Assembly (NCBI GenBank): GCA_025210155.1 | Contig: JAOASE010000006.1 | Span: 79,678-111,677, forward strand | From: Alphaproteobacteria bacterium | GTDB lineage: Bacteria > Pseudomonadota > Alphaproteobacteria > Rs-D84 > CASDRH01 | DNA: 32,000 nt | Direction: 5' to 3' | In this document: positions 1,789-31,064 of the stretch, one piece after another | How the letters are laid out: every line of letters starts with the position of its first letter | How positions within the stretch are numbered: position 1 is the stretch's first letter | Program-made: the position numbers and the translations under genes | Notes under the pieces: generated by a model | What the model saw: the letters and a program-made list of their open reading frames with translations, nothing else | Told to the model about the DNA's origin: nothing | Database searches by the model: none

Positions 1789-1818
1789 TTATACTCTTTC
1801 CATAAATTTAAAAGATAA

Positions 1819-3417: not shown

Positions 3418-3421
3418 TCAT

Positions 3422-4261: not shown

Positions 4262-5720
4262 AGATCTCTCCTTTATATTTCCACTTCTTTCCGTTCATAC
4301 TCCATTCAATTGAAGTAACTACCATTCCTCCAAAACTATCTAGGAACGGAGAAAACGTTGAAAATTTTTCTTTTGATGTAATTTCAAAACTTACAAACTT
4401 ATATGTTTTTTCTTGAATACTTTTACCTTCTCCAAAAGAGAATGTTTTGCTTCCTTGCTTAACAATACTTGATATTTTGTTTTCTTGGAAGAAATCTTTT
4501 AATGACTTTTCAATATATTTAACATTTTCTCTTGGCTCTGAAACTAGTTTTTTAACTTTATCAAATTTTAAAACACCACTAGCTGAACCATTCTTACTAA
4601 CTGTTAAACTCACATCTGAAGGAATATATCCCTCTTCCTGTGCTCTAAATACATACTCTTCTTTGCTAAGACCTCTTTTTCTCCAATCTATTCTAGCTCC
4701 ATCTTTACTACAGCTAATACCGGAGAAACCCCAGCCAGCAAAAGGCAAATAAACGGATTTTAGCGTTGAGAAACAAACCTTATAAATTTCTTCTGGATCA
4801 TAAGCATTTTTCCAAGGCTTTGCTTCGTCTATTTTCTTTTGTATCTTTCTTTTTTCTTCTTCTTCTCTAATCTTTTTTTGCTTTGCTAATCTTTGTCTTT
4901 GCTTAACAACTAATTCTTGAGCTGCCTGTCTTTTGTTCTCCATATATTGATTTTTAAATTTAAACATAGAAAAAACAACCACCATGGATATGAATAAAAA
5001 TATTATAAAGCTATAAGTTTTTTGATCTGATAATGACTTGATTTTTGCTAAAGAAAAATCGTCTATCATTGTTTTTAATTCAGCACCTATATCAGCATCT
5101 GAAACATTCCAAGAAGGAGGCGCAACCTTATATCCCCAATCAGGAACTGATAACATTGTTTCAAAAGCTAACCTAGCTTCTGACTCACTTTTATAAAGAA
5201 TATCCTCTTCTGGTAGAATCATGTCATTTCGAATAACAAGCATCCACCAACCTTCAGGAACTTCAAATACACAAAGAGCGCTACCTTTGTCAGAATATCT
5301 ACTTGCTACAAATGGTGCCGCAGCTGACATTCCTTCTTTATACCCATCCTGAGATGACATAAGACCATATTGAGCGACCCCAACTTCTTTAACGCAATAA
5401 AGATCATATTTGTTATCTTGTAAAACTTTTGAAACAGCTTTTATTTCTTTAAGCTTATTTTCTTCATCGTTAAATGGTTGCCAGAAGATACCAACCGCAT
5501 ATTTTTTTCTATCTACAGTTATGTAACTTTTTGTACTAGCACCAGATCTTTTTGCTTTTTTCACGGGAGCTGTTGGCTTAGCAATTGAAACGTCTTTACT
5601 TTCGCCTTTAGAAGTTTTCTTTTCATCCTTTTCTGCGTTAGACGAGCTTGAAGAGCCACCCTTGTTCTCAGATGGCTTTTGATTTATAAATTCTTTTATT
5701 TTATCTATAAAATTTATCAC
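4248..5720 (-). CDS. Bitopic pilus assembly protein, PilO (R64/PAPI-1 type) -like
   Basis: 490 aa. It has a Ser/Lys-rich N-terminus and a cytoplasmic domain starting 'KKYAVGIFWQPF'. A single TM segment 'YSFIIFLFISMVVVFSMF' is followed by the basic helix 'RQRLAKQKKIREEEEKRKIQKKIDEAK' and then a periplasmic domain. Its position between secretin and PilP-like gene matches pilO in the pilL-N-O-P-Q-R order. Confidence 0.5.
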   Translation of the reverse strand: MINFIDKIKEFINQKPSENKGGSSSSSNAEKDEKKTSKGESKDVSIAKPTAPVKKAKRSGASTKSYITVDRKKYAVGIFWQPFNDEENKLKEIKAVSKVLQDNKYDLYCVKEVGVAQYGLMSSQDGYKEGMSAAAPFVASRYSDKGSALCVFEVPEGWWMLVIRNDMILPEEDILYKSESEARLAFETMLSVPDWGYKVAPPSWNVSDADIGAELKTMIDDFSLAKIKSLSDQKTYSFIIFLFISMVVVFSMFKFKNQYMENKRQAAQELVVKQRQRLAKQKKIREEEEKRKIQKKIDEAKPWKNAYDPEEIYKVCFSTLKSVYLPFAGWGFSGISCSKDGARIDWRKRGLSKEEYVFRAQEEGYIPSDVSLTVSKNGSASGVLKFDKVKKLVSEPRENVKYIEKSLKDFFQENKISSIVKQGSKTFSFGEGKSIQEKTYKFVSFEITSKEKFSTFSPFLDSFGGMVVTSIEWSMNGKKWKYKGEIYGKD

Positions 5721-5743
5721 TCTCTCTCCAATTTTAAATTTTA

Positions 5744-7378
5744 TTATCTTAAGAAACTACCCTCTAGAGCTCTGTTATTAGGATGCAATGGTGAATTTAT
5801 CACTTGTGGAGTAATTAATACAACCAACACATCTCTTTCCACGTTGCTAACCCTTGAACCTCCGGCAGCTATGAAATTAGGATCTCCAAGACCTGTGTTT
5901 GTGTTCTCATTCTTAACTTTTTCAAAGCCCGTAAGAACTACTGTTTGACCAGATCTAAGGACTAATTCTTGAAGGAAACTTCTTTCTTCAATTGTTGGAA
6001 GTTGGATATTTGTGATAGATTGATCATCTTCACAGTCAACCTCTGTAGTACCGTCAGCTGCATAGCAGGTATCGTCGTTTTCTTCACTACCAGTTGATGA
6101 AACAGTATCAAGAGATATTAACTCTGTATAAGAAAGGTTAAACATCATTAACAATCTACCATTATCCAAAATATTTGGAAGCAATTGAATTGAGAAACCC
6201 TCTTCTATTTCATCAGTTTGAACTTCTGTTTCAGAACCACTTTCAGTACTTACAACTTTAATTTCACTAACATACTTATATTTTTTTAAGTTATTAAATG
6301 GAACTACTTTATTATTAATAGTTGTTAAAACAGCACTTGTTAATAGAGATGTTCTTCCCTGCTTTGATATTGCAGCTACTACAGCATCTATATTAGGACT
6401 ATTAACTTTATGACCGTCTCCTGCTTTATCTGTATTTCCTATCATATATTGTATACCAGAACCATTTGAAACTGCACCAGTACCACTAATACCTTTGAAA
6501 TTAAGATCCTTATGAAGCAATTGGAAATTAATCCCCATAGAGTCTCCATCATTTAAAGACACTTGCATAATTTTAACAGCGACAACAACTTGTCTAGAAA
6601 ATCTTTCATTTTGAATTCTAATGAACTGACCTATTTTTTTGATAACATCTGGAGATGAAGTAACAGATATTGTACCTGTTGATTTCGAAATTGTTATAGA
6701 ACTCTTATCATCTTCTTCTGTTTTAATAATATCGTTAAGACCTTGCTCAACCTCAGTCCAAGCATCAAAAGTTGAAGAAGAAGAAACTGAGCCTCCCCCA
6801 CTAGATGCAGATACTGACGTGCTGAAATCTGATGATGTTGATAAAGCATATAACGCAAATATTTTTGTCTTTCTTTTATAAAGTACTATTTCGTTACCTG
6901 TATATTCCCAATAGACACCTATTTCGTTTGAAATAAGATTTAATAGACCACTTAAAGAACCTGTATAAGAAAGTTGAAAATTTTCACCTTTTAAACTCTC
7001 GTCAACAGAGTCCAACCTAACTTTTAAACCTGTAAGATAATATAACTTATTAGCAAATGAAAATATATCTAATTCCTCTTTAGAAGAGAATGTTATTCCA
7101 TAATCCCCCTCTAACTCTTTAGGAAGAGGTTTTCCAGAAGACAAGATAACACTTTCATCACCTAAGAAAAGCTCATCAGTTTCAGAAACTGTATCAACCT
7201 CTATTGCCTCACTAGGAAGCTTAGACTCTTCAATCCTTTCTTTTATCTCTTCAAAAGAATGATCCACGTTTTCCATGATATGCTCTTTAACTTTTTCACC
7301 ATAACAACCTGTCAAAGAAACAGAAGCCAATAAAAGTATTGCTAATAACTTTACCCTACTAATTTTAACCATTATCAT
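5744..7378 (-). CDS. pilN: Lipoprotein secretin of type IVb pilus class (PilN/BfpB-like)
   Basis: 544 aa. Lipoprotein signal 'LLLASVSLTGC' (lipobox LTGC). Secretin-type C-terminus 'GQTVVLTGFEKVKNENTNTGLGDPNFIAAGGSRVSNVERDVLVVLITPQVI'. Upstream beta-rich N-domains are present. Its start overlaps the pilL-like stop by 14 nt. Confidence 0.8.
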   Translation of the reverse strand: MIMVKISRVKLLAILLLASVSLTGCYGEKVKEHIMENVDHSFEEIKERIEESKLPSEAIEVDTVSETDELFLGDESVILSSGKPLPKELEGDYGITFSSKEELDIFSFANKLYYLTGLKVRLDSVDESLKGENFQLSYTGSLSGLLNLISNEIGVYWEYTGNEIVLYKRKTKIFALYALSTSSDFSTSVSASSGGGSVSSSSTFDAWTEVEQGLNDIIKTEEDDKSSITISKSTGTISVTSSPDVIKKIGQFIRIQNERFSRQVVVAVKIMQVSLNDGDSMGINFQLLHKDLNFKGISGTGAVSNGSGIQYMIGNTDKAGDGHKVNSPNIDAVVAAISKQGRTSLLTSAVLTTINNKVVPFNNLKKYKYVSEIKVVSTESGSETEVQTDEIEEGFSIQLLPNILDNGRLLMMFNLSYTELISLDTVSSTGSEENDDTCYAADGTTEVDCEDDQSITNIQLPTIEERSFLQELVLRSGQTVVLTGFEKVKNENTNTGLGDPNFIAAGGSRVSNVERDVLVVLITPQVINSPLHPNNRALEGSFLR

Positions 7379-8102
7379 CTCCCAATGTTTTTATAACTAA
7401 AACCTTATTCCCCAAATAGAATTTTGCATATGGAGGTGGAAAAGCTTTTGAAAAGCTTTTTATTAAAGCAGATGTAACATCCTTATACCTACCTCTAAAT
7501 ATAGCTGACGCCCTTAAAGGATATTCTCTATCCGTTTGCCACAAAATCTCCCAACCAGTTTCCTCTGACCACTCTTCAAGAACCTCCCTTAAAGTAAGAC
7601 CTTCTTTTGCAACCCAATTTTGAATTTGAGTTTCATAATTAACCATTTCTTGAGTTTCATCACCTTCAGCCTCTACAACCTCAACCTCAGGATTTATATA
7701 ACCTTTTATATGATCGAATTTATTGCCTTGATCCCCACCAAAAGGAGATGAAACAGATAAAACTCTCATACCATCATCTTCAGCCATTTCATTATTTCCT
7801 AATGGCATAGCAGCTCCCTTAGAAGTTGCTTTATCAGAGAATACCGACGCTGGAAGCTCTGAAACTAAATCTGCCCCACCTGAAAAAGAGCCCAAATCTA
7901 TACCAGCTGGGATTACCGATTTTTCTGCTGTACCGAAATTTTCATTAAAAGAACTCATTTGAACGTCTGCAGTATTAATTTCTGCCCAACTGGGAGCATT
8001 AACTACACTACCAGATTCTGCAAACGAATAATCCGCCCTTGACGGCGTGGCCATTAAAACTACTAATAAGCTTAAGGCTTTTTTAATATTTGATAAACTC
8101 AT
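7365..8102 (-). CDS. pilL: Exported TcpQ/PilL-domain pilus biogenesis protein
   Basis: 245 aa. Sec signal 'LSLLVVLMATPSRA/DY' with no lipobox Cys. The C-terminal 'WVAKEGLTLREVLEEWSEETGWEILWQTDREYPLRASAIFRGRYKDVTSALIKSF...NKVLVIKT' fits the TcpQ/PilL domain pattern. It is the first gene of the operon, directly upstream of the secretin. Confidence 0.65.
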   Translation of the reverse strand: MSLSNIKKALSLLVVLMATPSRADYSFAESGSVVNAPSWAEINTADVQMSSFNENFGTAEKSVIPAGIDLGSFSGGADLVSELPASVFSDKATSKGAAMPLGNNEMAEDDGMRVLSVSSPFGGDQGNKFDHIKGYINPEVEVVEAEGDETQEMVNYETQIQNWVAKEGLTLREVLEEWSEETGWEILWQTDREYPLRASAIFRGRYKDVTSALIKSFSKAFPPPYAKFYLGNKVLVIKTLGDDNG

Positions 8103-9820: not shown

Positions 9821-10930
9821 ATGGATAAAATTGAAAAAATAAATTCCTTAAGACTAATTAATACCCCTCAAATTGGAGGAGTAAATTTCAGACGCCTTAT
9901 TAATAAATATGGAAATGCAAATGAAGCGATTAAAGCTGTTAAGGTACTCTGGGAACGAAAGGGGCTTGAAGTTTGTAGTGTAGATTTTGCCGAAGCTGAA
10001 ATTAAAAAAGCTGATGAAAAAGGGATTAGAATTTTATTCTGGAAAGAAAGTGATTTCCCTAAAAAATTTTTAGAAATAGCTGATTTACCTCCCATTATAT
10101 ATGTTCTTGGAAATGTCAGGGCTCTATCAAACAAATCTATTGCAATGGTTGGATCTAGAAATGCATCTGTTAATAGTAGAAATCTAACTTTTAACATATC
10201 AAAAGAACTATCTGAAAAAAATATTACCGTAGTTTCTGGACTAGCCTTAGGAATTGATACAGCTGCGCATGAAGGTGCATTAGCTGGAGGTGGAAGCTTT
10301 CCAACTGTAGCTGTTTTAGCCGGAGGAGTAGATGTTATATACCCACTTAGAAATAAAGATATATATAAATCAATTATTGAAAATGGTGGTGCTATAGTTT
10401 CTGAAAACCTAATTAATGCAAAACCTATTGCTGCGAATTTTCCAAGAAGGAATAAATTAATTTCTGGATTAGCCTGTTCTGTTTGCGTAATGGAAGCTAA
10501 TGAAAAATCTGGGTCTTTAATAACTGCTAAATATGCTCAGAAACAAAAGAAAAGTATTTTTGCTGTACCTGCAAACCCATTAAACCCTCAAGCTAATGGA
10601 ACTAATATGCTGTTGAAGAGTGGAGCTAACATGCTTATGTCTGCAAGCGATATTTTAGAAAATATAAATAATGAAATGTCTAGCGATCTATTTGATAGCA
10701 TAAATGAAGACTCCTTGTCTTTTGAAGATGAACTAGAGGTGGATAAATTGGAAGATAAAAATATTGAGAATGAAATTCTTTCTATGCTTTCTGAAAATCC
10801 AATATCACTTCATGAAATTATTGAAAAATCATCTTTAAATAAAAAAGATATAATTTCACACCTACTTTTGCTGGAATTAGATGGCAAAATTATATCTGAA
10901 AATTCTAATATGTATTCTAGAGTTTTTTAA
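9821..10930 (+). CDS. dprA: DNA processing protein DprA (Smf)
   Basis: 369 aa. 'IAMVGSRNAS', 'VVSGLALGIDTAAHEGAL' and 'FPRRNKLISGL' mark the DprA Rossmann-like core. A C-terminal winged-helix-like tail is present. Confidence 0.9.
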   Translation: MDKIEKINSLRLINTPQIGGVNFRRLINKYGNANEAIKAVKVLWERKGLEVCSVDFAEAEIKKADEKGIRILFWKESDFPKKFLEIADLPPIIYVLGNVRALSNKSIAMVGSRNASVNSRNLTFNISKELSEKNITVVSGLALGIDTAAHEGALAGGGSFPTVAVLAGGVDVIYPLRNKDIYKSIIENGGAIVSENLINAKPIAANFPRRNKLISGLACSVCVMEANEKSGSLITAKYAQKQKKSIFAVPANPLNPQANGTNMLLKSGANMLMSASDILENINNEMSSDLFDSINEDSLSFEDELEVDKLEDKNIENEILSMLSENPISLHEIIEKSSLNKKDIISHLLLLELDGKIISENSNMYSRVF

Positions 10931-15287: not shown

Positions 15288-16037
15288 ATGAAAAACAAGA
15301 TAAATTCACACTTTAAGATTGTTGTTACTATATGTACAGCCTGCGCTACTATGGTGTTTTTAAAGTTTGCCTTAGCTCAAAGCGAAACTCAAAAATCTAT
15401 CTACAGAGAAGAAACTAAAATATCTGAGGAGATAGATAATTATGAAGCTATGGAAGAAAAATATAAGCTGGAAATAGAAAAAAAGCAGAAAATAATTAAT
15501 ACTGCTCAAAGCAAAATGAAAAAGCTTAGAACTGATATATTTGAAACAGTTCAAGAAATTCACATAATCAAACAAAATGTTAGAGAGCTTTTCAATAGTA
15601 AGAAAAATACATACGAAGGACTAACTACTTTATCAGCTATAAATAGTAAAATTATACCTGAAGTACTTATATCTCCTGTAGGATATCAAAAGGAAGGCAC
15701 TATAGTTACTGAAAATGGAATTAAAAAGAATGTTGTTAGACCTTGGGGACAAGTCGCTATAAATAGATTTGGCGGACTTATTAGCGTTGACTCTGTAGGA
15801 GACAATTTCAAACATAAATATTTTAGAATAACGTATTCTGGATTACCTAACTATATATGTGAGGCCTTAATTTTATCTCGTTGGGAAGACAGCTATATTG
15901 GTAGCGCATGGGTTGGTGTTAATGGACATTACTTTTCTTGGGAAGAAGAATTTCAAGAAAACAGCTTGCCTATAAATCAACAAAAAGCCAAGGAAATTTG
16001 CAGAGGTGGTGGATACTTCCAAATAGGATTTGAATAG
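15288..16037 (+). CDS. Hypothetical exported or membrane-anchored protein: N-terminal hydrophobic segment, long charged helix, C-terminal type IVb-pilin-like two-Cys domain
   Basis: 249 aa. The N-terminal hydrophobic segment is 'FKIVVTICTACATMVFLKFALA'. A coiled-coil-like region covers roughly aa 35-105. The C-terminal 'KYFRITYSGLPNYICEALILS...KEICRGGGYFQIGFE' has Cys191 and Cys238. An in-frame upstream TGA at 15264 fixes the N-terminus. Confidence 0.6.
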   Translation: MKNKINSHFKIVVTICTACATMVFLKFALAQSETQKSIYREETKISEEIDNYEAMEEKYKLEIEKKQKIINTAQSKMKKLRTDIFETVQEIHIIKQNVRELFNSKKNTYEGLTTLSAINSKIIPEVLISPVGYQKEGTIVTENGIKKNVVRPWGQVAINRFGGLISVDSVGDNFKHKYFRITYSGLPNYICEALILSRWEDSYIGSAWVGVNGHYFSWEEEFQENSLPINQQKAKEICRGGGYFQIGFE

Positions 16038-21217: not shown

Positions 21218-22624
21218 TTAATCCTTCTTTGCTTCTCTCTTTATTTCCACATATCTATTAGATGGATTGTTTTTTTCAGATATATATATTTCTTTATCTA
21301 ATTTTATATCTTTATTTGATGAATTATTATTTACAACATCTATTGCTGCCTGAGCTCTATCGTTTGCTAATTTCTGATTATTAGGAGTTTTTCCACCATC
21401 AGCAGCTCCCGTTATAATATAATAACCCGAAGGAAGATTTTGTAAATTTGTTAAATTCATATCTCCAGCCTTAATTTTTGTAGCTCCTGAAGCGAAATGG
21501 ATTTTTATAAACTGACCAACCTTCATTTCCGACACTGATTTTGGGGAGCCACTTCCCATCTCTTCAACGTTAAATTTATAATTTTCTATTTCTTCAAGAG
21601 AATAGTTAACGATTGTTTTTCCCATAGTTTTATCAACACTGAATTTGCCTAGTTTATTATCATCTTCGATTCCCCATTTTTTAAACTTTTCTTTAACAGC
21701 TTCCGTTGGATTGGATTTTTCTGTCTGGATTGATTTCTCTTTTCCAATAGTTAATCCATTAGATTTTAATTTGTCAGAAATCTCTTTACCTTCTTTTGAT
21801 AGAGTTTGTTCTTTTGAAGTTGAAATTTCAAATTTCCCCTTATATTTTCCATCTTTAGATTCATATAAAACCTTTCCATCTTTTTCTATTAATGGAGTTT
21901 TTGGTTCAGGACATAACTTTCTTAAATATCTGGCTACCCAATAAACATTCCCATCTTTCGATGTTGTCCATTTCTTATCGACAGGACTATGTGGGTCTTT
22001 AGCATTAAGCCTATAAGATAGAACTCCTGAACCTCCAGCTGCTAATAAATCTTCACACGTTTTAGGTTCTTCAGTTTTAGCTTCTAACCCCTCTTGCCCT
22101 ATAGCTAGCTTACAGGCTGTTTTGTGTTGTAACCAATATCTACCTTTTTTCTTACACTTAACTAAATTAACAGACTTCATGCCCCTCATTGCCTTATTAG
22201 ACTCTCCAGTAGTAACTATAACACCTGTACCTACTGCAGTTAGAGCTGTTGCTGCTATAGTGACACCCTTATTATTTTTATATTTCTTTTCTGCTCTACC
22301 TAACTTTCTACTATAATTTTCATATTGAGATTTCAGGAATGCTAAATCCGAAGAAATTTCTTCATTATCATTATTTAACTTTGTTGAAATGTACTCTAAA
22401 TCTTTTTGATCAGATCTCTCGCATTCATCATCGTAAGAATTTACAAACGCAGATAATTCACTTAATCTTGATATATGATCCTCAATTTCGTCTTTACTAC
22501 TAGCAGAGGAAATATCTCCATTCTCACTTAGAATGGAATTAAAATTGCTTCTTGTTACTTCTGCTAATGCAAATGTTTGTAAAGAAAAAATGCAGCTTAT
22601 TGTTGTTAATATTATTTTTTTCAT
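21218..22624 (-). CDS. Exported protein: coiled coil, Ala/Thr/Gly-rich hydrophobic segment, Lys-rich middle, OmpA-like peptidoglycan-binding C-terminal domain
   Basis: 468 aa. Signal 'ILTTISCIFSLQTFALA/EV'. The hydrophobic segment 'GVTIAATALTAVGTGVIVTTG' spans aa 120-140. The C-terminal 'IHFASGATKI...YYIITGAADGGKTPNNQKLANDRAQAAIDVV...NRYVEIK' follows the OmpA_C pattern (F.f.s.a.l ... i.GhtD..G....N..LS..RA.aV ... NRRVEI). RBS AAAGGAAG lies upstream. Confidence 0.7.
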   Translation of the reverse strand: MKKIILTTISCIFSLQTFALAEVTRSNFNSILSENGDISSASSKDEIEDHISRLSELSAFVNSYDDECERSDQKDLEYISTKLNNDNEEISSDLAFLKSQYENYSRKLGRAEKKYKNNKGVTIAATALTAVGTGVIVTTGESNKAMRGMKSVNLVKCKKKGRYWLQHKTACKLAIGQEGLEAKTEEPKTCEDLLAAGGSGVLSYRLNAKDPHSPVDKKWTTSKDGNVYWVARYLRKLCPEPKTPLIEKDGKVLYESKDGKYKGKFEISTSKEQTLSKEGKEISDKLKSNGLTIGKEKSIQTEKSNPTEAVKEKFKKWGIEDDNKLGKFSVDKTMGKTIVNYSLEEIENYKFNVEEMGSGSPKSVSEMKVGQFIKIHFASGATKIKAGDMNLTNLQNLPSGYYIITGAADGGKTPNNQKLANDRAQAAIDVVNNNSSNKDIKLDKEIYISEKNNPSNRYVEIKREAKKD

Positions 22625-22651: not shown

Positions 22652-23872
22652 TTATATTGGGTAATCCATATTAAGATCTTTCATTAATTCTTCTTCGAAC
22701 TGTTGATTTTGTTCGAATATATCTTTATCTAAATTTTTAGAGTTATCTTTACTTGTTTCTTCCTTAGACTTTCTTTTACCTGAAAATAGTCCTTTTTTCT
22801 CCTTAGGATCTTTTACTTTTGAAGTTTTCTCTTTTTTCTCTTCTGGAGCTTTAGTCTTTTGAGAAGCTTTTGAAGTCTTAGAAGACTTATTAGTATACTT
22901 CTTTTTACACATAGTTTGAAGCATTGAAGATGTTACATCTTTTCCATTCCATTTAGAAAGAATGCCATTTTCATCCCATTCTGCATGAGCTGTGCTTAAT
23001 AATCTATCACATTTAGGTTTCTTCTTATTTCTATAATCTGAGCTACATAAACATTTTTTAATTGCAATATTTTTTGTTACTGAAATTGTTGCCCAAGTAG
23101 TTGCTGCTACAGCAGTAGTTCCAGAAATTATAGCTGTAGCTTGCATAGTTTTTGCTTTTTTATCCATGTCTTTGTAATCTTTTTTCACATCTGCAACTTC
23201 TTTTTTATACCAAAGAATTTCTTGAAGATTTGAAATAGTGTTATTAATAGACATTAAAGCTTCTGACCTTTGATCTGTGCAGTAAAAAACTTCTGCCGCC
23301 TCTTTACATATATGCTCTTCTTCTGAAAATACAAAATTCACGCCACAAGAACATTGTCCGTTAATCCAAGTTCCTGCTCCATTAGCTTCACATAAAGCCT
23401 GTCTTGTTTGACATTTACTTGAAGGGATAACATCGCTCCATACTAAACCAACGTTAACACAAGCTTCTTCTGTTCCACAATATATTGGAGTTTCCGCAGA
23501 ACAAACATGCTCTGTATCTTCTTGTTCTACACCATTAACGTTCTTTGGAAAACACATTCCATAGATAGTTTTACCCTGTGGATTAACCCATTCTGTAATA
23601 GTTTCCGTTGGATTACTTGAGTCGTTTGGATTTGTCTTTGTCCACTTTGTTTGCCAAAGACCACCTTGAGCCTCACAATCTTGCTGAGTATAACAGTAAA
23701 GAAGTGCATCTCCACAACCCATTTGTTTTTTCTCAACCTCATTGGTGAAAACATTTGTTGCAGAAACTCTACTTCTTGCGTAAGAGTTTGTTCTTTTACC
23801 TCTAGAATAAGATGTGCTTGCCATAGATAGCAACATCATTACAGATAATGATACATATAAAACTTTTTTCAT
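22652..23872 (-). CDS. Exported Cys-rich protein, paralogous in its central module to the adjacent 468-aa protein; Lys-rich tail with acidic C-terminus
   Basis: 406 aa from the ATG at 23872 (MKKVLYVSLSVMMLLSMASTSYS...), with RBS GAAGGGA upstream. The track ORF starts 29 codons earlier. The protein has 17 Cys. The motif C-x-T-x3-C-x3-G-x2-W occurs twice exactly, plus a third degenerate variant. The hydrophobic segment is 'QATAIISGTTAVAATTWATISVT'. The C-terminal tail reads 'KTSKASQKTKAPEEKKEKTSKVKDPKEKKGLFSGKRKSKEE...EEELMKDLNMDYPI'. Confidence 0.7.
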   Translation of the reverse strand: MKKVLYVSLSVMMLLSMASTSYSRGKRTNSYARSRVSATNVFTNEVEKKQMGCGDALLYCYTQQDCEAQGGLWQTKWTKTNPNDSSNPTETITEWVNPQGKTIYGMCFPKNVNGVEQEDTEHVCSAETPIYCGTEEACVNVGLVWSDVIPSSKCQTRQALCEANGAGTWINGQCSCGVNFVFSEEEHICKEAAEVFYCTDQRSEALMSINNTISNLQEILWYKKEVADVKKDYKDMDKKAKTMQATAIISGTTAVAATTWATISVTKNIAIKKCLCSSDYRNKKKPKCDRLLSTAHAEWDENGILSKWNGKDVTSSMLQTMCKKKYTNKSSKTSKASQKTKAPEEKKEKTSKVKDPKEKKGLFSGKRKSKEETSKDNSKNLDKDIFEQNQQFEEELMKDLNMDYPI

Positions 23873-23961
23873 TTCTAAATATCCCTTCTTATAAGAATGA
23901 TATATTTTAACATATTTTTCAATACCTTGCAAATAATTTAAACAACTGAGATTTAACAAAT

Positions 23962-26757: not shown

Positions 26758-26910
26758 ATGAATAAATTTATGATACTTACAGTTCTTATGCTTACTGCTC
26801 TTTCAGGATGTGGAACTATATATGAGCCAGATCCGGTTGGCACAGGCTATGACATAAACGAACTTAAATTATCTCCTTGTGCTTGCATGCAAGTAATGAA
26901 CCTTGCATAA
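26758..26910 (+). CDS. 50-aa lipoprotein, VirB7-like by size, lipobox and position
   Basis: Absent from the ORF track because it is under 60 aa. ATG at 26758, TAA at 26908-26910. The sequence is MNKFMILTVLMLTALSGCGTIYEPDPVGTGYDINELKLSPCACMQVMNLA. The lipobox is LSGC. A strong RBS lies 8 nt upstream. It sits immediately upstream of the VirB8-like and VirB9-like genes. Confidence 0.5.
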   Translation: MNKFMILTVLMLTALSGCGTIYEPDPVGTGYDINELKLSPCACMQVMNLA

Positions 26911-26930: not shown

Positions 26931-27836
26931 ATGGGCAATAAAAAGGATAATATCAAAAAAGATAAATATCAAGAAACCCCTATATATCCAACAGAATTTC
27001 ACACGAGAACCTTTCCTCAAAGAGTTTATATTTGGATTATAGAGAGGTTTGTTTCTATTGCCTGCATACTTGTTCTTTTGTCTGCAATTCAAGCTATTTA
27101 TATATTTGCCAAAATCAGCACAGTTGAAAAGTCTAACATATATTTTGTATATTGGGATGAATATGAAAATAGATTTAAAGAAAAAGAATTTATTGATGAA
27201 TTCCATAAAAACGAAGTGAAAATACCTATATATCAAATAACCGCTCAAGAAACTTTAGAAAAGGCTGTTGTTGATAGATATCAAATATCATCCAATGAAA
27301 TAAATAATGAAAAAAAATGGTGCGGGTGTGAAAAAGAAATATTAGATAGAAAAAAAGCAGCTATATTTACTGATGACTGTTTTATATGTAGACATTCATC
27401 AAATAATGAATGGACAATATTCTCGAATGGCATTCTTCAGGAAAACTTAGAAATATTTAACTCTGGAAAAACTAGAAAAGTTGTTTTATTAGAAACAAAT
27501 ATTCTGAATAGTTATGATGCGTATCTTAGACCTAAAGAAACATTTTTTAATAAAATTGCTACGGAGGCTATGAATTTCTTTAATGTTACCAAAAAGAAAG
27601 AAGAATTTCTTGCTCAATATATTATGGAAGTCAAATTTGCATTGATACAATATGATAAAAATGGGAAAAAAGAATGGGCGGAGATATTATCCTCAATAGC
27701 CCAGATAACTTCTAGAAGTAAGGATTATGGAGACAGAGTTTATGGATTCGTAATAGATGAGCTAGATACTAATTTTGTACCTCAAAAAGAGATGTACTTT
27801 AAAAAATATTTAGAGGAGTTAAGAAATTATGAATAA
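26931..27836 (+). CDS. Bitopic inner-membrane protein, VirB8/DotI-fold-like paralog 1 (most divergent)
   Basis: 301 aa from the ATG at 26931, with RBS AAAGGAA upstream; the track start at 26877 overlaps the lipoprotein gene. It has a short basic N-terminus and the TM segment 'VYIWIIERFVSIACILVLLSAIQAIYIFA'. The periplasmic domain has an alpha1-like helix 'QETLEKAVVDRYQISSNE'. A CGC...CFIC four-Cys cluster is present. The C-terminal 'RVYGFVIDEL' parallels the NPLGF motif of paralog 3. Confidence 0.45.
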   Translation: MGNKKDNIKKDKYQETPIYPTEFHTRTFPQRVYIWIIERFVSIACILVLLSAIQAIYIFAKISTVEKSNIYFVYWDEYENRFKEKEFIDEFHKNEVKIPIYQITAQETLEKAVVDRYQISSNEINNEKKWCGCEKEILDRKKAAIFTDDCFICRHSSNNEWTIFSNGILQENLEIFNSGKTRKVVLLETNILNSYDAYLRPKETFFNKIATEAMNFFNVTKKKEEFLAQYIMEVKFALIQYDKNGKKEWAEILSSIAQITSRSKDYGDRVYGFVIDELDTNFVPQKEMYFKKYLEELRNYE

Positions 27837-28656
27837 AGCTCCTGAATTTAAATTGATATCTTTCATTGTTGTTATAGTAGCCCTTATAATGATGCTGTTG
27901 AATTCTGTATTGACTATATTTATTTTTGATATGACAAAAGGGTTTCAAACTGGTGACTTAAAAAGCCTATCAATAACTGGATTAAAAACCAAGGAAGCAA
28001 TAATACCTAAAGAAATTGAAATATATTCATCTTCTGAAAATATGTTCAATGCCATACCTATGTCCAACAACATATCTCAAGAGAAGAAAACTCAATTTAT
28101 CCAAAAGCTTATAAAACAATATCTTATAACTAGATATACAATAAATGGAAATCAATTCTTAATGAATAAGAACATGGGGGAGATGCATCTCAAGCATAAA
28201 AAAGGATGTCCTAGAAAACTTGTCAGTCCTATTTATATGTGGAGCATGACATTTTCTGATGCTGGAGAAAGAAAATATCCTTCCGTTTTAGGTAGCGGAG
28301 CTAAAGATGATGCATCTCAAGCCTGGATAGAATTTCTTGAAAAAGAAGTTCCAGACATAAAATCTAAAATGAATGCTGGAATAACTAGATCTGTTGAAAT
28401 ACTTCAAGTTCCATATAAAGACGGAGATTGGTGGAAAACAAAAATTAGATTGATATATAGAAATGATATAGAATTTACTAGAGAAGTTTACGAAGATTTC
28501 AATATATCTATGGAAGTTATTTTTGCACCAAAAGATAAGAAATTACTAAAAAAAGAACACTATCCATTTAGGCTAGCAAACCTTGCGGAAAGCTTTGGAG
28601 ATCCTTATATTATGTTTGGATTTCATGTAATACAACTAGTTAAAGAAAAAGAATAA
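27829..28656 (+). CDS. Bitopic inner-membrane protein, VirB8/DotI-fold-like paralog 2
   Basis: 275 aa. Its start overlaps the upstream stop by 8 nt (ATGAATAA). The TM segment is 'LISFIVVIVALIMMLLNSVLTIFIF'. The alpha1-like helix is 'TQFIQKLIKQYLITRYTINGN'. The beta region reads 'ITRSVEILQVPYKDGDWWKTKIRLIYRN'. The C-terminal motif is 'GDPYIMFGFHVIQL'. Confidence 0.5.
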   Translation: MNKAPEFKLISFIVVIVALIMMLLNSVLTIFIFDMTKGFQTGDLKSLSITGLKTKEAIIPKEIEIYSSSENMFNAIPMSNNISQEKKTQFIQKLIKQYLITRYTINGNQFLMNKNMGEMHLKHKKGCPRKLVSPIYMWSMTFSDAGERKYPSVLGSGAKDDASQAWIEFLEKEVPDIKSKMNAGITRSVEILQVPYKDGDWWKTKIRLIYRNDIEFTREVYEDFNISMEVIFAPKDKKLLKKEHYPFRLANLAESFGDPYIMFGFHVIQLVKEKE

Positions 28657-28688: not shown

Positions 28689-28717
28689 TTGTAAAAAATC
28701 TCATTTTCTGTTATAAT
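28689..28717 (+). promoter_or_regulatory. Possible internal sigma70-like promoter upstream of VirB8-like paralog 3
   Basis: TTGTAA (28689-28694), a 17-nt spacer, then TATAAT (28712-28717), in the 81-nt gap before the ATG at 28738. The AT-rich background makes this weak evidence. Confidence 0.3.
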
Positions 28718-28737
28718 TGTTTTTGGTAGGGAAAAAC

Positions 28738-29472
28738 ATGAGCGAGAATAAAGTTAAAATAAAAAATACAAAGACTATGTCTGAGGAAAAAAAATTCTTT
28801 TGGATTTCAAAAGTTCTTTTTCTATTTACAGCCATAGCTGCCATTTCAAATATAATTTTATTCTTTGTCGCAACAAACTTAGTTCCAAATATTAAAGTTC
28901 AACCATTCTTTATTGAGAGTAAAAATTTAGCTGAAAAAGATATTTTAGTATACAAAGATTATAGAAAAGACCTATCTAGAAGAAATGTTAAGAATGAACA
29001 AGAATTCTATAAAATAAAACCAAATTCAGCGTCATTTAAAATTGCAGAAAACAATATCAAAAAATATATCATAGATAGAGAAACAATTGTAAGAGATACT
29101 GAGTCTATGTTTAATAACTGGGGAAATGAAAGTGATGTATTTTATTTTTCTTCAGAAGAAATATATAAAAAGTTTTCTGAGACTAAAACCTTTAGATCTG
29201 TAATTGAACAACAAAGAGATCTTGGCTGGAATAAGATTGTTGAAATAAAAGAGCTTAAATTTCATTCTAGAGCAAATGAATGGATAGCTGATGTTATATT
29301 TAGATATATTCAACCAAATGGAATGCCTTTCAAAACTCTTGAGAAAAGGATAGTTCTTGAAGTTGGTTTCAACCTTAACGAATTAAAAAGAAATAAAGAC
29401 AACATGTATAAAAATCCTTTAGGATTTACTGTTGAAAAATACTTTTATACTTCAGTTAACAAGGCACCATAG
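28738..29472 (+). CDS. virB8: VirB8-family (TrbF/DotI-fold) T4SS inner-membrane protein, paralog 3
   Basis: 244 aa from the ATG at 28738, with RBS AGGGA upstream; the track start at 28717 is a TTG. It has a cytoplasmic N-terminus and the TM segment 'FFWISKVLFLFTAIAAISNIILFFVA'. The alpha1-like helix is 'KIAENNIKKYIIDRETIVRD'. The beta region reads 'NKIVEIKELKFHSRANEWIADVIFRY'. The C-terminal 'KNPLGFTVEKYFY' matches the VirB8 'NP.G..V..Y' motif as I recall it. It lies directly upstream of the virB9-like gene. Confidence 0.65.
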   Translation: MSENKVKIKNTKTMSEEKKFFWISKVLFLFTAIAAISNIILFFVATNLVPNIKVQPFFIESKNLAEKDILVYKDYRKDLSRRNVKNEQEFYKIKPNSASFKIAENNIKKYIIDRETIVRDTESMFNNWGNESDVFYFSSEEIYKKFSETKTFRSVIEQQRDLGWNKIVEIKELKFHSRANEWIADVIFRYIQPNGMPFKTLEKRIVLEVGFNLNELKRNKDNMYKNPLGFTVEKYFYTSVNKAP

Positions 29473-29543: not shown

Positions 29544-31064
29544 ATGAAAAAGATCTTTTTATTTTTAGGAGCTTTAAATCTTTGCTTATTTTCTGGAAAT
29601 AGCAAATCTTTTGCTGAGGGAGAATATACAAATTCTGGATTTGGTACTCAAACTGCATGGAGCAACCCAGAACAAAATATTGGTGAAGGACAAATTAAAC
29701 CTGGATATGCCAGAATAGATTGGGAACCAGGAAAAGTTATGCCTGTTAGATTGAGAGATGGTATGATAACTCTTATAAATCTACCTACTTGGGAAAAGAT
29801 TGAAGATGCATATATTGGAGATAAGGACTTCTTCGATGGTAGAGCTGTGGAAAAAAATACCTTCATGATATCTCCTGTTGATGGAAGATCAGTGGCTGAT
29901 ACAAATATGGTTCTATTTGGTAAATCTGGTAATAAATATGTCTTCTATCTTAAATCAGAACCAATTAATACTGGAACTATAACTAATTCTGAAATCGAGA
30001 TTATAGTTCCTAATTCTTACAAAGGTAAAAAATCCGTTATTGGAGGAGCTTCTTCTAGTGCTGGTAAATCAAATTTAACTTCTCTATTTGCTAAATCAGC
30101 ATCTGGATCTGCCGGTGATGAAGCTTGGGAAGGTGAAGATTTTGGTTGGATTAAAAATATACCTGTTGACCCATCTCAATTTAGATTCGATATGGATATA
30201 TTTGTTCCAAATCCTGATGATTATGTAATCGCACCTGAAAGAGTTTGGAGAGATAAAATCTTTACTTACATTGATTTTGGTGAAAAAGCTTTACACATGA
30301 ACCAAAGACCAGCTGTTTCAATACTTGTTGAAGGTGGTGAAGCGCCTGTTGGATTTAGAACTGAAGGACCTCTTTCTAGATTAATAGTTGTTGAAGCTAT
30401 TGGTGACTTTGTTCTTAGATCTGGTCAAAGAATTGTATGTATTAAGAAAAGATCTAAGCCGTTCTTAGCTTCTGCTCCAACAATAAATAGTAACTTTACT
30501 CTACCTCAATCAGTAAAGAACTTAGCTAATGGTAATTATACAAATATTCAAACACAATCTGCTGTTTCGCAAGAAGTTAACAATGGACAAGCTGGCTTTG
30601 GGTTCTTCAATCCAAATTCAATGCCTGCCATAAATAATGTGACCTCTCAACAAAGCAATTTCCAAACATCTTCTAGTTATACTCAAGTAAACTATGATGA
30701 AGAGTACAGAAGAAATGATGCAAGAACAAATGGATCTTATCTGCCAGATCATTACGTTCCTTTAGTTGAGCAAAAGACTGTTTCTTACGCTGTTGAAATT
30801 AAAAAAGGCGATTCAATAAAAGAATTAGAAAAATCTTGGGAAGCAATGTCTGCTGGAAAAGGAAATATGCTTTCTAGATACCAAGATAGAGTTTTCTATT
30901 CTCTTGAAGACGAAGGCGTTGATGAGTTAGGTTCTAATCTATACCATGGAAATGAAGTTTATAGATTAAGAATTGGACCATTTGAAGAAATTGATGAACC
31001 AGATGAACTTTGTAAAAAACTTTCTGGATTTAGAATTAATTGTAAAGTTGTTAGAATTCAATAA
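29544..31064 (+). CDS. virB9: VirB9/TrbG/CagX-family T4SS outer-membrane core protein fused to a Q/N/S-rich linker and a C-terminal SPOR domain
   Basis: 506 aa. Signal 'FLFLGALNLCLFSGNSKSFA/EG'. The VirB9 N-domain pattern is 'GKVMPVRLRDGMITLINLPTWEKIEDAYIGDKDFFDGRAVEKNTFMISPVDGRSVADTNMVLFGKSGNKYVFYLKSE'. The VirB9 C-domain pattern is 'APERVWRDKIFTYIDFGEKALHMNQRPAVSILVEGGEAPVGFRTEGPLSRLIVVEAIGDFVLRSGQRIVCIKKR'. The low-complexity linker spans about aa 304-412. The SPOR-like end is 'YAVEIKKGDSIKELEKSWEAMS...EVYRLRIGPFEEIDEPDELCKKLSGFRINCKVVRIQ'. Confidence 0.8.
   Translation: MKKIFLFLGALNLCLFSGNSKSFAEGEYTNSGFGTQTAWSNPEQNIGEGQIKPGYARIDWEPGKVMPVRLRDGMITLINLPTWEKIEDAYIGDKDFFDGRAVEKNTFMISPVDGRSVADTNMVLFGKSGNKYVFYLKSEPINTGTITNSEIEIIVPNSYKGKKSVIGGASSSAGKSNLTSLFAKSASGSAGDEAWEGEDFGWIKNIPVDPSQFRFDMDIFVPNPDDYVIAPERVWRDKIFTYIDFGEKALHMNQRPAVSILVEGGEAPVGFRTEGPLSRLIVVEAIGDFVLRSGQRIVCIKKRSKPFLASAPTINSNFTLPQSVKNLANGNYTNIQTQSAVSQEVNNGQAGFGFFNPNSMPAINNVTSQQSNFQTSSSYTQVNYDEEYRRNDARTNGSYLPDHYVPLVEQKTVSYAVEIKKGDSIKELEKSWEAMSAGKGNMLSRYQDRVFYSLEDEGVDELGSNLYHGNEVYRLRIGPFEEIDEPDELCKKLSGFRINCKVVRIQ

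What the first reader, a model, noticed from the sequence alone, without database searches (positions are those of the whole stretch)
30453..31064. SPOR peptidoglycan-binding domain fused to a VirB9-family outer-membrane core subunit via a Q/N/S-rich linker
After the VirB9 C-domain ends (...RSGQRIVCIKKR), the protein continues with about 110 aa of low complexity. This stretch is rich in N, Q, S and T ('NSNFTLPQSVKNLANGNYTNIQTQSAVSQEVNNGQAGFGFFNPNSMPAINNVTSQQSNFQTSSSYTQVNY'). A roughly 90-aa terminal module follows, matching the SPOR beta-alpha-beta-beta-alpha-beta signature ('YAVEI', 'YRLRIGPFEEIDEPDELCKKL', 'CKVVRI'). SPOR domains are known to bind denuded glycan strands, which are enriched at division septa. 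I do not recall such a fusion on VirB9. The fusion suggests two roles. It could tether the T4SS core complex to peptidoglycan, possibly compensating for the absent VirB1. It could also recruit the machine to septal or new-pole sites.
Basis: partly seen in the sequence, partly recalled or inferred. Interest (0 to 1): 0.7.

Follow-up and report, generated by a model that had tools for sequence, protein, structure and literature searches.

The report
VirB9 secretion-channel subunit carrying a SPOR domain
The outer-membrane ring protein (VirB9) of a type IV secretion system in a gut alphaproteobacterium really does end in a cell-wall-binding SPOR domain on a long flexible tether, a conserved but apparently undescribed design, and its key sugar-binding residue is changed in a way that questions the usual SPOR function.

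Summary
ORF 29544-31064 (+, 506 aa) has four parts. It starts with a VirB9 core (Pfam CagX E 8e-19; its predicted structure matches solved VirB9 structures). An uncharged, disordered linker follows (aa 304-391, 49% N/Q/S/T), then a conserved peptide, then a C-terminal SPOR fold (aa 414-505).

The SPOR call is borderline for this one sequence (20-23.7 bits against a cutoff of 21). It is solid for the family:
- 26 of 28 relatives hit Pfam SPOR.
- A profile of the module finds bona fide multi-SPOR proteins.
- hhalign gives 99.3% probability over the whole domain.
- The AlphaFold2 model has the beta-alpha-beta-beta-alpha-beta order and superposes best on the RlpA and CwlC SPOR domains.

It is not an assembly artefact. 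Three independent assemblies give the identical protein, and more than 567 species genomes of gut Alphaproteobacteria encode the same layout. A divergent version sits on VirB9 in complete virB/virD4 clusters on Sphingomonadales megaplasmids.

The functional reading needs a caveat. The canonical glycan-binding Gln is an invariant Glu here (120/120) and Asp in the plasmid clade. This is the same change as FtsN Q251E, a mutant defective in denuded-glycan binding. Peptidoglycan tethering of the core complex is the best guess. Septal targeting and compensation for VirB1 remain untested. I rate it a new variant of a known kind.

The parts
26758..26910 (+). 50-aa lipoprotein ORF (lipobox LSGC), the first gene of the operon; candidate VirB7-like partner of VirB9
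   Evidence: Called as a gene in three assemblies. Translation is MNKFMILTVLMLTALSGC.... No family hit. The VirB7 assignment is inference from size, lipobox and position.
28717..29472 (+). VirB8 gene immediately upstream
   Evidence: Pfam VirB8 E 1.2e-5, 25.7 bits, cutoff 23.2. The same order is seen in L007.
29544..29615 (+). N-terminal signal sequence of VirB9 (aa 1-24, ...SKSFA/EGE)
   Evidence: Hydrophobic N-terminus read directly from the sequence. The cleavage site is inferred.
29676..30023 (+). VirB9 N-terminal beta-sandwich domain (aa ~45-160)
   Evidence: AF2 pLDDT 84-95. Foldseek to R388 TrwF/VirB9 NTD: 8rt6_v TM 0.82, rmsd 1.9; 7o3t_B TM 0.79.
30030..30224 (+). Disordered Ser/Gly/Ala-rich inter-domain segment (aa 163-227)
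   Evidence: pLDDT below 50. Low conservation at aa 161-190.
30240..30452 (+). VirB9 C-terminal domain (aa ~233-303), the most conserved part of the protein
   Evidence: Column conservation 0.8-0.98. Foldseek to pKM101 TraO CTD (2ofq, 3jqo_B), R388 7o3j_B and X. citri 2n01. Pfam CagX ends at aa 302.
30453..30716 (+). Uncharged low-complexity linker (aa 304-391), N/Q/S/T-rich in this protein
   Evidence: 49% NQST against 19% elsewhere. Family linker length is 57-123 aa (median 91) with K+R 0.5%. pLDDT 30-38.
30717..30770 (+). Conserved pre-SPOR peptide TNGSYLPDHYVPLVEQKT (aa 392-409); function unknown
   Evidence: P401 and P406 nearly invariant. Absent from more distant VirB9-SPOR proteins, whose matches begin at profile position ~26. 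Low pLDDT.
30783..31058 (+). SPOR domain (aa 414-505): b1 414-422, a1 425-444, b2 450-456, inserted loop with GVDELG, b3 471-480, a2 484-494, b4 501-505
   Evidence: Pfam. (AF2). (Foldseek to RlpA SPOR 6i05/6i09 and CwlC 1x60: prob 1.00, TM 0.65-0.67). (reciprocal profile search). (hhalign 99.3%).
30795..30797 (+). Codon GAA = E418, at the position of the canonical SPOR glycan-binding Gln (FtsN Q251 / RlpA Q270)
   Evidence: Alignments place E opposite Q of bona fide SPOR domains. Invariant in 120/120 relatives.
30960..30971 (+). Y473-R474-L475-R476 in strand b3. R474 and R476 align with the RlpA R309/R311 basic patch and FtsN R285.
   Evidence: Invariant in 120/120. Residue roles are from PMC6895207. 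The correspondence comes from the alignments and the FtsN sequence.
31011..31043 (+). C490 (helix a2) and C500 (start of b4), an invariant cysteine pair and probable periplasmic disulfide
   Evidence: Invariant in 120/120. Shared with nearly all free alphaproteobacterial SPOR domains found. The disulfide is inferred.
31082..32000 (+). Start of VirB10 (623 aa in the full contig), which runs off the window
   Evidence: Pfam TrbI on the full gene. NCBIfam T4SS_VirB10 E 8e-22. The ATG at 31082 is read.

Best explanation
The gene encodes a divergent VirB9, the periplasmic and outer-membrane ring subunit of a P-type type IV secretion system. It is extended by an unstructured, uncharged tether of about 90 residues ending in a true SPOR domain of the alphaproteobacterial 'YRLR...C...C' subtype.

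VirB9 C-terminal domains sit in the outer layer of the multimeric core complex, just under the outer membrane; that layer is 14-fold in the solved systems (my recollection, not read from a structure here). Each machine would therefore dangle a crown of about 14 SPOR domains able to reach the peptidoglycan layer. The most likely role is multivalent, non-covalent attachment of the core complex to peptidoglycan glycan strands, which anchors and positions the channel in the sacculus.

Shown here: the domain identities, the architecture, its conservation and its genomic context. Inferred: periplasmic location, the copy number per machine, the disulfide and peptidoglycan binding itself.

The groove is not canonical. 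The conserved Gln is replaced by an invariant acidic residue. Affinity for standard denuded glycans is therefore probably reduced or the specificity shifted. Binding may depend on avidity or on a modified glycan.
For: VirB9 identity:
- Pfam CagX E 8e-19.
- Fold matches to X. citri VirB9 6gyb_B (E 1e-13), R388 TrwF 8rt6_B (E 4e-12), DotH, CagX and TraO.
- The gene lies between VirB8 and VirB10.

SPOR identity:
- 26/28 family members hit Pfam SPOR.
- The module profile retrieves proteins that Pfam scores as SPOR at E 1e-22 to 1e-29.
- hhalign gives 99.3%.
- The AF2 topology and the best structural superpositions are on RlpA and CwlC SPOR.

Retained ligand-contact features:
- Invariant R474 and R476 align with the RlpA R309/R311 basic patch, which holds the MurNAc lactyl carboxylate.
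- The invariant Cys pair fits a periplasmic domain.

Selection on the module:
- It is as conserved as the VirB9 N-domain, while the linker varies freely in length (57-123 aa) and sequence. This is the pattern expected of a tether plus a functional head.

Recurrence:
- The same design occurs in more than 567 species genomes.
- It also occurs in other VirB9 clusters.
- Sphingomonadales plasmid VirB9s carry it too (hhalign 98.2% to SPOR).

The organism has a divisome and a wall: ftsQ and ftsA are in the window and a Mur ligase is in L007.
Against: The key Gln is Glu in all 120 relatives. FtsN Q251E lowers denuded-glycan binding and septal localisation.

In more distant VirB9-SPOR proteins the first Arg is often His (F-H-L-R), and the Microvirga module looks degenerate. 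The groove is therefore not uniformly preserved.

No binding or localisation data exist. The Pfam score for this individual sequence is at threshold and covers only half the model. Foldseek E-values for the small domain are weak (0.02-0.06), and generic ferredoxin-like folds are interleaved with the SPOR hits.
Confidence: 0.6

Rival explanations
1. Septal or new-pole targeting. The SPOR domain binds amidase-generated denuded glycans at the division septum in the canonical way. New T4SS core complexes are therefore assembled at mid-cell and inherited at new poles. Insertion may exploit the peptide-free, uncross-linked glycan there instead of a VirB1 lytic transglycosylase.
For: The domain is a true SPOR homologue. 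The R-x-R patch that reads the free lactyl carboxylate, the chemical mark of a denuded strand, is invariant. Complete related clusters show no SLT/VirB1 hit. As background from my own knowledge, polar targeting of the Legionella Dot/Icm system through the division site is a precedent; the link between peptidoglycan deacetylation and Dot/Icm localisation is mentioned in PMC10838918.
Against: [quoted passage not shown] The acidic residue is fixed in two distant VirB9 clades (E in one, D in the other), so it is selected for rather than merely tolerated. Absence of VirB1 from this genome was not tested.
Confidence: 0.2
2. Repurposed SPOR fold. The module no longer binds peptidoglycan. It serves as a protein-protein interaction or assembly domain within the T4SS (for example with the long VirB10 N-region, VirB8 or the two unknown bitopic proteins of the operon), or it binds another envelope polymer.
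For: The canonical Gln is lost. Clade-specific additions are absent from free SPOR domains: the conserved TxGSxLPxHxVPLV peptide and the GVDELG insertion between b2 and b3. The groove residues vary in distant members.
Against: The invariant R474/R476 and the overall sheet surface are shared with free alphaproteobacterial SPOR domains. Some free SPOR domains also carry Glu at this site, so Glu does not by itself mark a T4SS-specific partner. AF2 gives no confident docking of the module onto the VirB9 core.
Confidence: 0.18
3. Artefact. A frameshift, a mis-assembly or a chance ORF read-through joins a VirB9 gene to a separate SPOR gene.
For: None found.
Against: The identical 506-aa product occurs in three independent Logan assemblies and in NCBI and JGI records. 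tblastn matches mostly spanning the query through residue 506 were found in 80 listed loci out of more than 567 species genomes. All 120 closest relatives are 465-551 aa and carry the module.
Confidence: 0.01

Closest known systems
SPOR domains of FtsN, DamX, DedD, RlpA (E. coli, P. aeruginosa) and CwlC (B. subtilis), Pfam PF05036
   Same: Same beta-alpha-beta-beta-alpha-beta fold. The best structural superpositions are on RlpA (6i05, 6i09) and CwlC (1x60). Profile homology is strong. The b3 arginines match RlpA R309/R311 and FtsN R285. The domain is C-terminal, periplasmic and placed after a low-complexity linker, as in FtsN and DamX (the last point is from my own knowledge).
   Different: The invariant Gln of b1 is Glu. 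Helix a1 is longer, and there is a 5-7 residue GVDELG insertion between b2 and b3. The Cys pair links a2 and b4, whereas FtsN pairs C252 with C312 (the FtsN pairing is from my own knowledge). The domain is attached to a secretion-machine subunit, not to a divisome protein or wall hydrolase.
Free alphaproteobacterial multi-SPOR proteins (400-900 aa, 2-3 SPOR domains, 'YRLRxGPF...C...C'), e.g. P0152, P0165, P0173
   Same: These are the closest sequence relatives of the module outside VirB9 (E 1e-14 to 1e-7). They share the YRLR motif, both cysteines and the W-containing long a1 helix. They are the likely source subfamily of the fused domain.
   Different: Most carry Gln at the glycan-binding site; a minority carry Glu. 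They lack the pre-SPOR peptide and the GVDELG insertion. They are not linked to VirB9.
Canonical VirB9 / TraO (pKM101) / TrwF (R388) / X. citri VirB9
   Same: The two-domain beta-sandwich VirB9 core has matching folds. The Pfam CagX family matches. The gene order is virB8-virB9-virB10.
   Different: The weak alignment to X. citri VirB9 reaches chain residue 251 of 255 at this protein's residue ~302, so that protein ends with the C-domain. This protein carries about 200 further residues. It scores far below the NCBIfam VirB9 equivalog cutoff (42 against 218 bits). The inter-domain segment is long and disordered.
VirB9 of Sphingomonadales megaplasmids (Erythrobacter aureus YH-07 NZ_CP031358, WP_115418090.1; Sphingosinicella sp. 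BN140058 p1, WP_129392748.1)
   Same: VirB9 plus linker plus C-terminal SPOR-like module with VRLRVGPF...C...C. hhalign gives 98.2% to bona fide SPOR and 98.0% to this family. An acidic residue occupies the Gln site.
   Different: Asp instead of Glu. The linker is shorter and proline-containing. There is no TxGSxLPxHxVPLV peptide. The module falls below Pfam detection. The genes sit in complete plasmid virB2-B11/virD4 clusters next to relaxase and topoisomerase genes, not in a chromosomal three-to-six-gene operon.
Peptidoglycan-binding accessories of other trans-envelope machines (Dot/Icm DotK with an OmpA-like domain; T6SS TagL/TagN; T2SS GspA/ExeA; PilQ AMIN domains; TsaP/FimV LysM). Recalled from the literature, not tested here.
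   Same: The general logic is the same: a wall-binding domain attached to an envelope-spanning nanomachine to anchor or position it.
   Different: The domain family differs (SPOR). The attachment point also differs, because here the domain is fused directly to the conserved core-ring subunit rather than carried by an accessory protein.

Membership tests
SPOR domain (Pfam PF05036) | Score at or above the Pfam gathering threshold (21 bits) | tested here: inconclusive
   This sequence scores 20.0 bits in the whole protein (below cutoff) and 23.1-23.7 bits as an isolated module (above cutoff). Only profile positions 38-76 align. In the family, 26 of 28 hit at E<=0.01, best 5e-9. Many relatives carry a precomputed PF05036 hit.
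SPOR domain (Pfam PF05036) | Homology to bona fide SPOR domains over the whole domain | tested here: met
   hhalign of the family profile against 14 Pfam-confirmed SPOR domains plus FtsN: probability 99.3%, E 1e-20, 90 columns from b1 to b4. The reciprocal profile search retrieves proteins with Pfam SPOR E 1e-22 to 1e-29.
SPOR domain (Pfam PF05036) | RNP-like beta-alpha-beta-beta-alpha-beta fold | tested here: met
SPOR domain (Pfam PF05036) | Conserved Gln in strand b1 that hydrogen-bonds the glycan (FtsN Q251, RlpA Q270) | tested here: not met
   Glu at the aligned position, invariant in 120/120 relatives. Residue roles are from PMC6895207. The Q251E phenotype is from bioRxiv 10.1101/2024.05.13.594014.
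SPOR domain (Pfam PF05036) | Basic residues in strand b3 that hold the MurNAc lactyl carboxylate (RlpA R309/R311, FtsN R285) | tested here: met
   R474 and R476 in YRLR are invariant in 120/120. The alignment comes, and the roles.
SPOR domain (Pfam PF05036) | Binds denuded peptidoglycan glycan strands and localises to the septum | not testable with these tools
   Needs sacculi pull-down or ITC and microscopy.
VirB9 / TrbG / CagX (Pfam PF03524) | Score above the Pfam gathering threshold | tested here: met
   68.7 bits against 34.2, E 8e-19, aa 57-302, covering profile positions 5-197 of 198.
VirB9 / TrbG / CagX (Pfam PF03524) | Two beta-sandwich domains matching solved VirB9 structures | tested here: met
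   Foldseek of the full model: 6gyb_B E 9.8e-14, 8rt6_B 4.3e-12, NTD to 8rt6_v TM 0.82, CTD to 2ofq, 3jqo_B and 2n01.
VirB9 / TrbG / CagX (Pfam PF03524) | Encoded between virB8 and virB10 | tested here: met
   VirB8 upstream. VirB10/TrbI downstream. The same order is seen in L007 and in the plasmid clusters.
VirB9 equivalog (NCBIfam TIGR02781) | Score above the equivalog cutoff (217.7 bits) | tested here: not met
   42.3 bits, E 6.6e-11. This is a divergent member of the superfamily, not an equivalog of Agrobacterium-type VirB9.
VirB9 / TrbG / CagX (Pfam PF03524) | Assembles with VirB7 and VirB10 into the outer-membrane core complex | not testable with these tools
   The only support is a candidate 50-aa lipoprotein at 26758-26910 and the adjacent VirB10.

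The most novel reading that the evidence does not exclude
VirB9-fused SPOR domains form a distinct 'acidic-groove' SPOR subclass, with Glu or Asp fixed in place of the glycan-binding Gln in two distant clades. This subclass would read a different peptidoglycan mark than classical denuded glycan. One candidate is N-deacetylated sugars or another cationic feature, whose free amine could pair with the carboxylate at the spot where Gln normally contacts the N-acetyl group. The T4SS would use that mark to choose where its core complex is inserted and anchored, without a dedicated VirB1 lytic transglycosylase.
Probability: 0.15. Interest if true: 0.8.

Novelty: new variant of a known kind. Interest (0 to 1): 0.55.

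Why it matters
How large trans-envelope machines get through the peptidoglycan mesh and are held in it is only partly understood for type IV secretion systems. The usual answers are a VirB1-type lytic transglycosylase or accessory wall-binding lipoproteins.

Here the conserved core-ring subunit itself carries a wall-binding domain on a tether. The design is conserved across hundreds of gut alphaproteobacterial species and in conjugative-type clusters of cultured Sphingomonadales. That gives a direct and testable link between T4SS placement and wall chemistry.

The fixed Gln-to-acid change also offers a natural experiment on SPOR ligand specificity. In E. coli FtsN the same change is used as a loss-of-binding mutant.

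Tried and rejected
- **PDB sequence searches for the SPOR module.** The A1 profile and a single family member found no SPOR chain. The module is too divergent at sequence level, so I used fold and profile-profile comparison instead.
- **PDB sequence searches for the VirB9 part.** phmmer gave only weak hits to 6gyb_b and 7o3j_B (E 0.2-0.4), and the A2 profile gave none. The fold search settled it.
- **tblastn of the SPOR module against 72,556 plasmids.** No match. I first read this as absence from plasmids. I then corrected it after seeing that the best plasmid VirB9 genes were 430-550 aa and reading their C-termini.
- **BLASTP of the two unknown upstream ORFs against VirB8.** No similarity, so I dropped the idea of tandem VirB8 paralogues.
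- **Literature.** Searches for SPOR+VirB9 and RF32+T4SS returned nothing. The broad 'spor' search matched words such as 'sporadic'.
- **Taxonomy of distant VirB9-SPOR clusters.** The listing of cluster members gave almost no names.
- **Coordinates.** The first NCBIfam call failed on a wrong VirB10 frame (the true start is 31082).
Full report
**1. The observation**

The window is AT-rich (about 30% GC). A single uninterrupted ORF runs from 29544 to 31064 on the + strand and encodes 506 aa.

Pfam places a CagX/VirB9 domain at aa 57-302 (E 8e-19, 68.7 bits, cutoff 34.2) and a marginal SPOR match at aa 468-504 (20.0 bits, cutoff 21). The isolated C-terminus scores 23.7 bits (E 6e-5), but only against the second half of the SPOR model. 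For this one sequence, then, the SPOR label sits on the threshold.

**2. Family evidence**

The exact protein is in public databases as 'MAG: TrbG/VirB9 family P-type conjugative transfer protein [Alphaproteobacteria bacterium]'. A search returned 1,475 relatives. The best 120 are all 465-551 aa, and many carry precomputed PF03524+PF05036 hits.

I aligned the 120 closest relatives. The pattern is:
- a well conserved VirB9 N-domain;
- a very highly conserved VirB9 C-domain (0.8-0.98 per column);
- a poorly conserved gap-rich stretch at aa ~330-390;
- renewed conservation from aa 392 to the end.

The variable linker is 57-123 aa long in the family (median 91) and almost free of Lys and Arg (0.5%). 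In this protein it is 49% N/Q/S/T against 19% elsewhere.

Only about 86 residues are true low complexity. Residues 392-409 (TxGSxLPxHxVPLV) are a conserved peptide of unknown role.

**3. Is the terminal module a SPOR domain?**

Four independent lines say yes.
- 26 of 28 diverse family C-termini hit Pfam SPOR at E<=0.01, best 5e-9.
- A profile of the module was searched against 1.84 billion representative proteins and found 367 hits. Beyond the family and further VirB9 proteins, these are multi-SPOR proteins that Pfam scores at E 1e-22 to 1e-29.
- hhalign of the module profile against those bona fide domains plus E. coli FtsN gives 99.3% probability, E 1e-20, over 90 columns from strand b1 to strand b4.
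- AlphaFold2 on the family alignment gives pLDDT 84 and the order b1-a1-b2-loop-b3-a2-b4. Foldseek superposes it best on the RlpA SPOR (6i05, 6i09) and CwlC SPOR (1x60) structures, with probability 1.00 and TM 0.65-0.67. The E-values are weak, as expected for a small ferredoxin-like fold.

Sequence-only searches of the PDB missed these structures.

**4. Is the front part a VirB9?**

Yes. The full-length model has these parts:

| Region (aa) | Element | pLDDT |
|---|---|---|
| 45-160 | N-terminal domain | 84-95 |
| 163-227 | disordered segment | below 50 |
| 233-298 | C-terminal domain | 50-67 |
| 300-411 | disordered tether | 30-38 |
| 414-505 | SPOR fold | 80-91 |

Foldseek matches X. citri VirB9 (6gyb_B, E 1e-13), R388 TrwF (8rt6_B, E 4e-12; N-domain TM 0.82), DotH, CagX and pKM101 TraO.

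The gene lies between VirB8 and VirB10. It is divergent, reaching only 42 bits against the 218-bit cutoff of the NCBIfam VirB9 equivalog. In the weak phmmer alignment, X. citri VirB9 residue 251 of 255 corresponds to residue ~302 here. That protein therefore ends where this one begins its 200-residue extension.

**5. Not an artefact, and not rare**

The identical 506-aa product is called in three independent Logan assemblies, always inside the same operon. The operon order is:
1. a 50-aa lipoprotein;
2. a 301-aa ORF;
3. a 275-aa ORF;
4. VirB8;
5. VirB9-SPOR;
6. VirB10 (623 aa).

lepA follows on the other strand.

The 80 listed loci mostly match through residue 506. They come from MAGs of rumen, human, termite and other guts, labelled Candidatus Enterousia, 'Rickettsiales bacterium' or 'Alphaproteobacteria bacterium'.

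In relative L007 the cluster is just virB8, virB9-SPOR and virB10 among housekeeping genes. This indicates a chromosomal, vertically inherited system whose other components lie elsewhere.

**6. Wider distribution**

The module profile also hits other VirB9 proteins of 450-620 aa, with the module at the extreme C-terminus (E 1e-17 to 1e-9).

tblastn against 72,556 plasmids matched VirB9s only over aa 36-330, and the module alone found nothing. However, the best plasmid hits, Erythrobacter aureus YH-07 and Sphingosinicella sp. BN140058, encode VirB9s of 432 and 430 aa. Their tails read ...KYEVDLGSG...VRLRVGPF...C...C.V.

A profile of 35 such tails aligns to bona fide SPOR domains at 98.2% probability and to this family at 98.0%. 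These plasmid genes sit in complete virB2/B3?/B4/B5/B6?/B7?/B8/B9/B10/B11/virD4 clusters next to relaxase or topoisomerase genes. No SLT/VirB1 hit was found in them.

Microvirga VirB9 (550 aa) has a proline-rich linker and a degenerate-looking module. The Thalassospira, Azospirillum and Paracaedimonas VirB9s have no such tail.

**7. The twist: an altered binding groove**

In the RlpA SPOR-glycan structures, three features stand out (PMC6895207):
- the highly conserved Q270 donates hydrogen bonds to the MurNAc lactyl carboxylate and the GlcNAc N-acetyl oxygen;
- R302, R309 and R311 form the basic patch for the carboxylate;
- FtsN Q251 and R285 are the equivalent residues.

Alignments place E418 of this protein opposite that Gln, and R474/R476 opposite R309/R311.

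E418, Y473, R474, L475, R476, P479, C490, C500 and R504 are invariant in all 120 relatives. Across the representative search, VirB9-fused modules almost always have Glu at this site (one Asp, one Gln). Free SPOR domains mostly have Gln, with a minority of Glu. The Sphingomonadales plasmid clade has Asp.

[quoted passage not shown] The acidic residue is therefore selected for, not drift. It argues against assuming canonical denuded-glycan affinity.

**8. Mechanism**

*Shown:* a VirB9 core, a flexible uncharged tether and a conserved SPOR-homologous head with an intact R-x-R patch, an acidic residue in place of Gln, and a Cys pair.

*Inferred:*
- The protein is exported, because it has a signal-like N-terminus.
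- The VirB9 C-domain sits in the outer layer of the core complex, as in pKM101, R388 and X. citri.
- About 14 tethered heads per machine can reach the wall.
- The heads bind glycan strands multivalently and so anchor or position the channel.

I put peptidoglycan tethering at about 0.6. Within or beside it, canonical septal or new-pole targeting is about 0.2, and a repurposed non-wall role is about 0.18.

The idea that the domain compensates for a missing VirB1 is compatible with the SLT-free plasmid clusters. It is untested, and this genome could not be surveyed.

**9. Novelty**

No paper in the searchable library pairs 'SPOR domain' with VirB9. The 16 papers that mention both SPOR domains and type IV secretion are not about a fusion, judging by their titles.

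The architecture is nevertheless already visible in database annotations. Wall-binding accessories are known for other machines, which I recall from the literature. I therefore rate it a new variant of a known kind, with moderate interest. Two things raise that interest: the fixed acidic substitution, and the existence of cultured hosts in which it can be tested.

Noticed in passing
window 691-8102 (- strand) and 15288-16037 (+): A chromosomal gene cluster for a type IVb pilus that resembles (from memory) the thin pilus of IncI plasmid R64. It holds a TcpQ-like protein, a secretin, PAP_PilO, an unknown ORF, a T2SSE ATPase and a T2SSF platform protein. A PilS-type prepilin lies separately. The cluster sits in the same 32 kb as the T4SS operon.
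   Followed up: no
window 26758-26910 (+): A 50-aa ORF with a lipobox (…LTALSGC…) heads the virB8-virB9-virB10 operon and is called in three assemblies. It is a likely VirB7-like lipoprotein partner of VirB9. No family model hits it.
   Followed up: partly
window 26931-27836 and 27829-28656 (+): Two overlapping ORFs (301 and 275 aa) lie between the lipoprotein and VirB8. Each has one N-terminal hydrophobic helix. They have no Pfam or NCBIfam hit and no BLASTP similarity to VirB8. They are absent from the L007 cluster, where a DUF192 gene sits upstream of VirB8 instead.
   Followed up: partly
window 30717-30770 (aa 392-409) and aa 457-463: A conserved peptide, TxGSxLPxHxVPLV, lies just before the SPOR fold. 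A conserved GVDELG insertion lies between strands b2 and b3. Both are specific to this gut clade, absent from free SPOR domains, and predicted with low confidence.
   Followed up: partly
window 21218-22624 and 22652-23959 (- strand): Two adjacent large ORFs (468 and 435 aa) have no Pfam hit. They lie between ribosomal protein L25 and EF-P genes.
   Followed up: no
window 9821-10930 (+): dprA (DNA-processing protein A, associated with natural transformation) is present near the pilus genes. JGI labels relatives of the VirB9 as 'ComB9 competence protein'. A DNA-uptake role for this T4SS was not examined.
   Followed up: no
P0188, P0211, P0231, P0241, P0242, P0247, P0264 (representative-library proteins): A group of 390-450 aa proteins with two SPOR-like domains. 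Their N-terminal domain also carries Glu at the glycan-binding Gln position (e.g. YYVELGK). Acidic-groove SPOR domains therefore exist outside VirB9 as well.
   Followed up: no
L084 (Microvirga sp. VF16 plasmid pMVF16-3) 1234-2886: A VirB9 of 550 aa has a proline-rich repeat-like linker (…VVEKPVIVEREVPVEIQKTVVIEKPVPAP…) and a degenerate C-terminal module with the Cys pair but no Gln, Glu or YRLR motif. It may be a decaying or re-specialised version of the fusion.
   Followed up: partly
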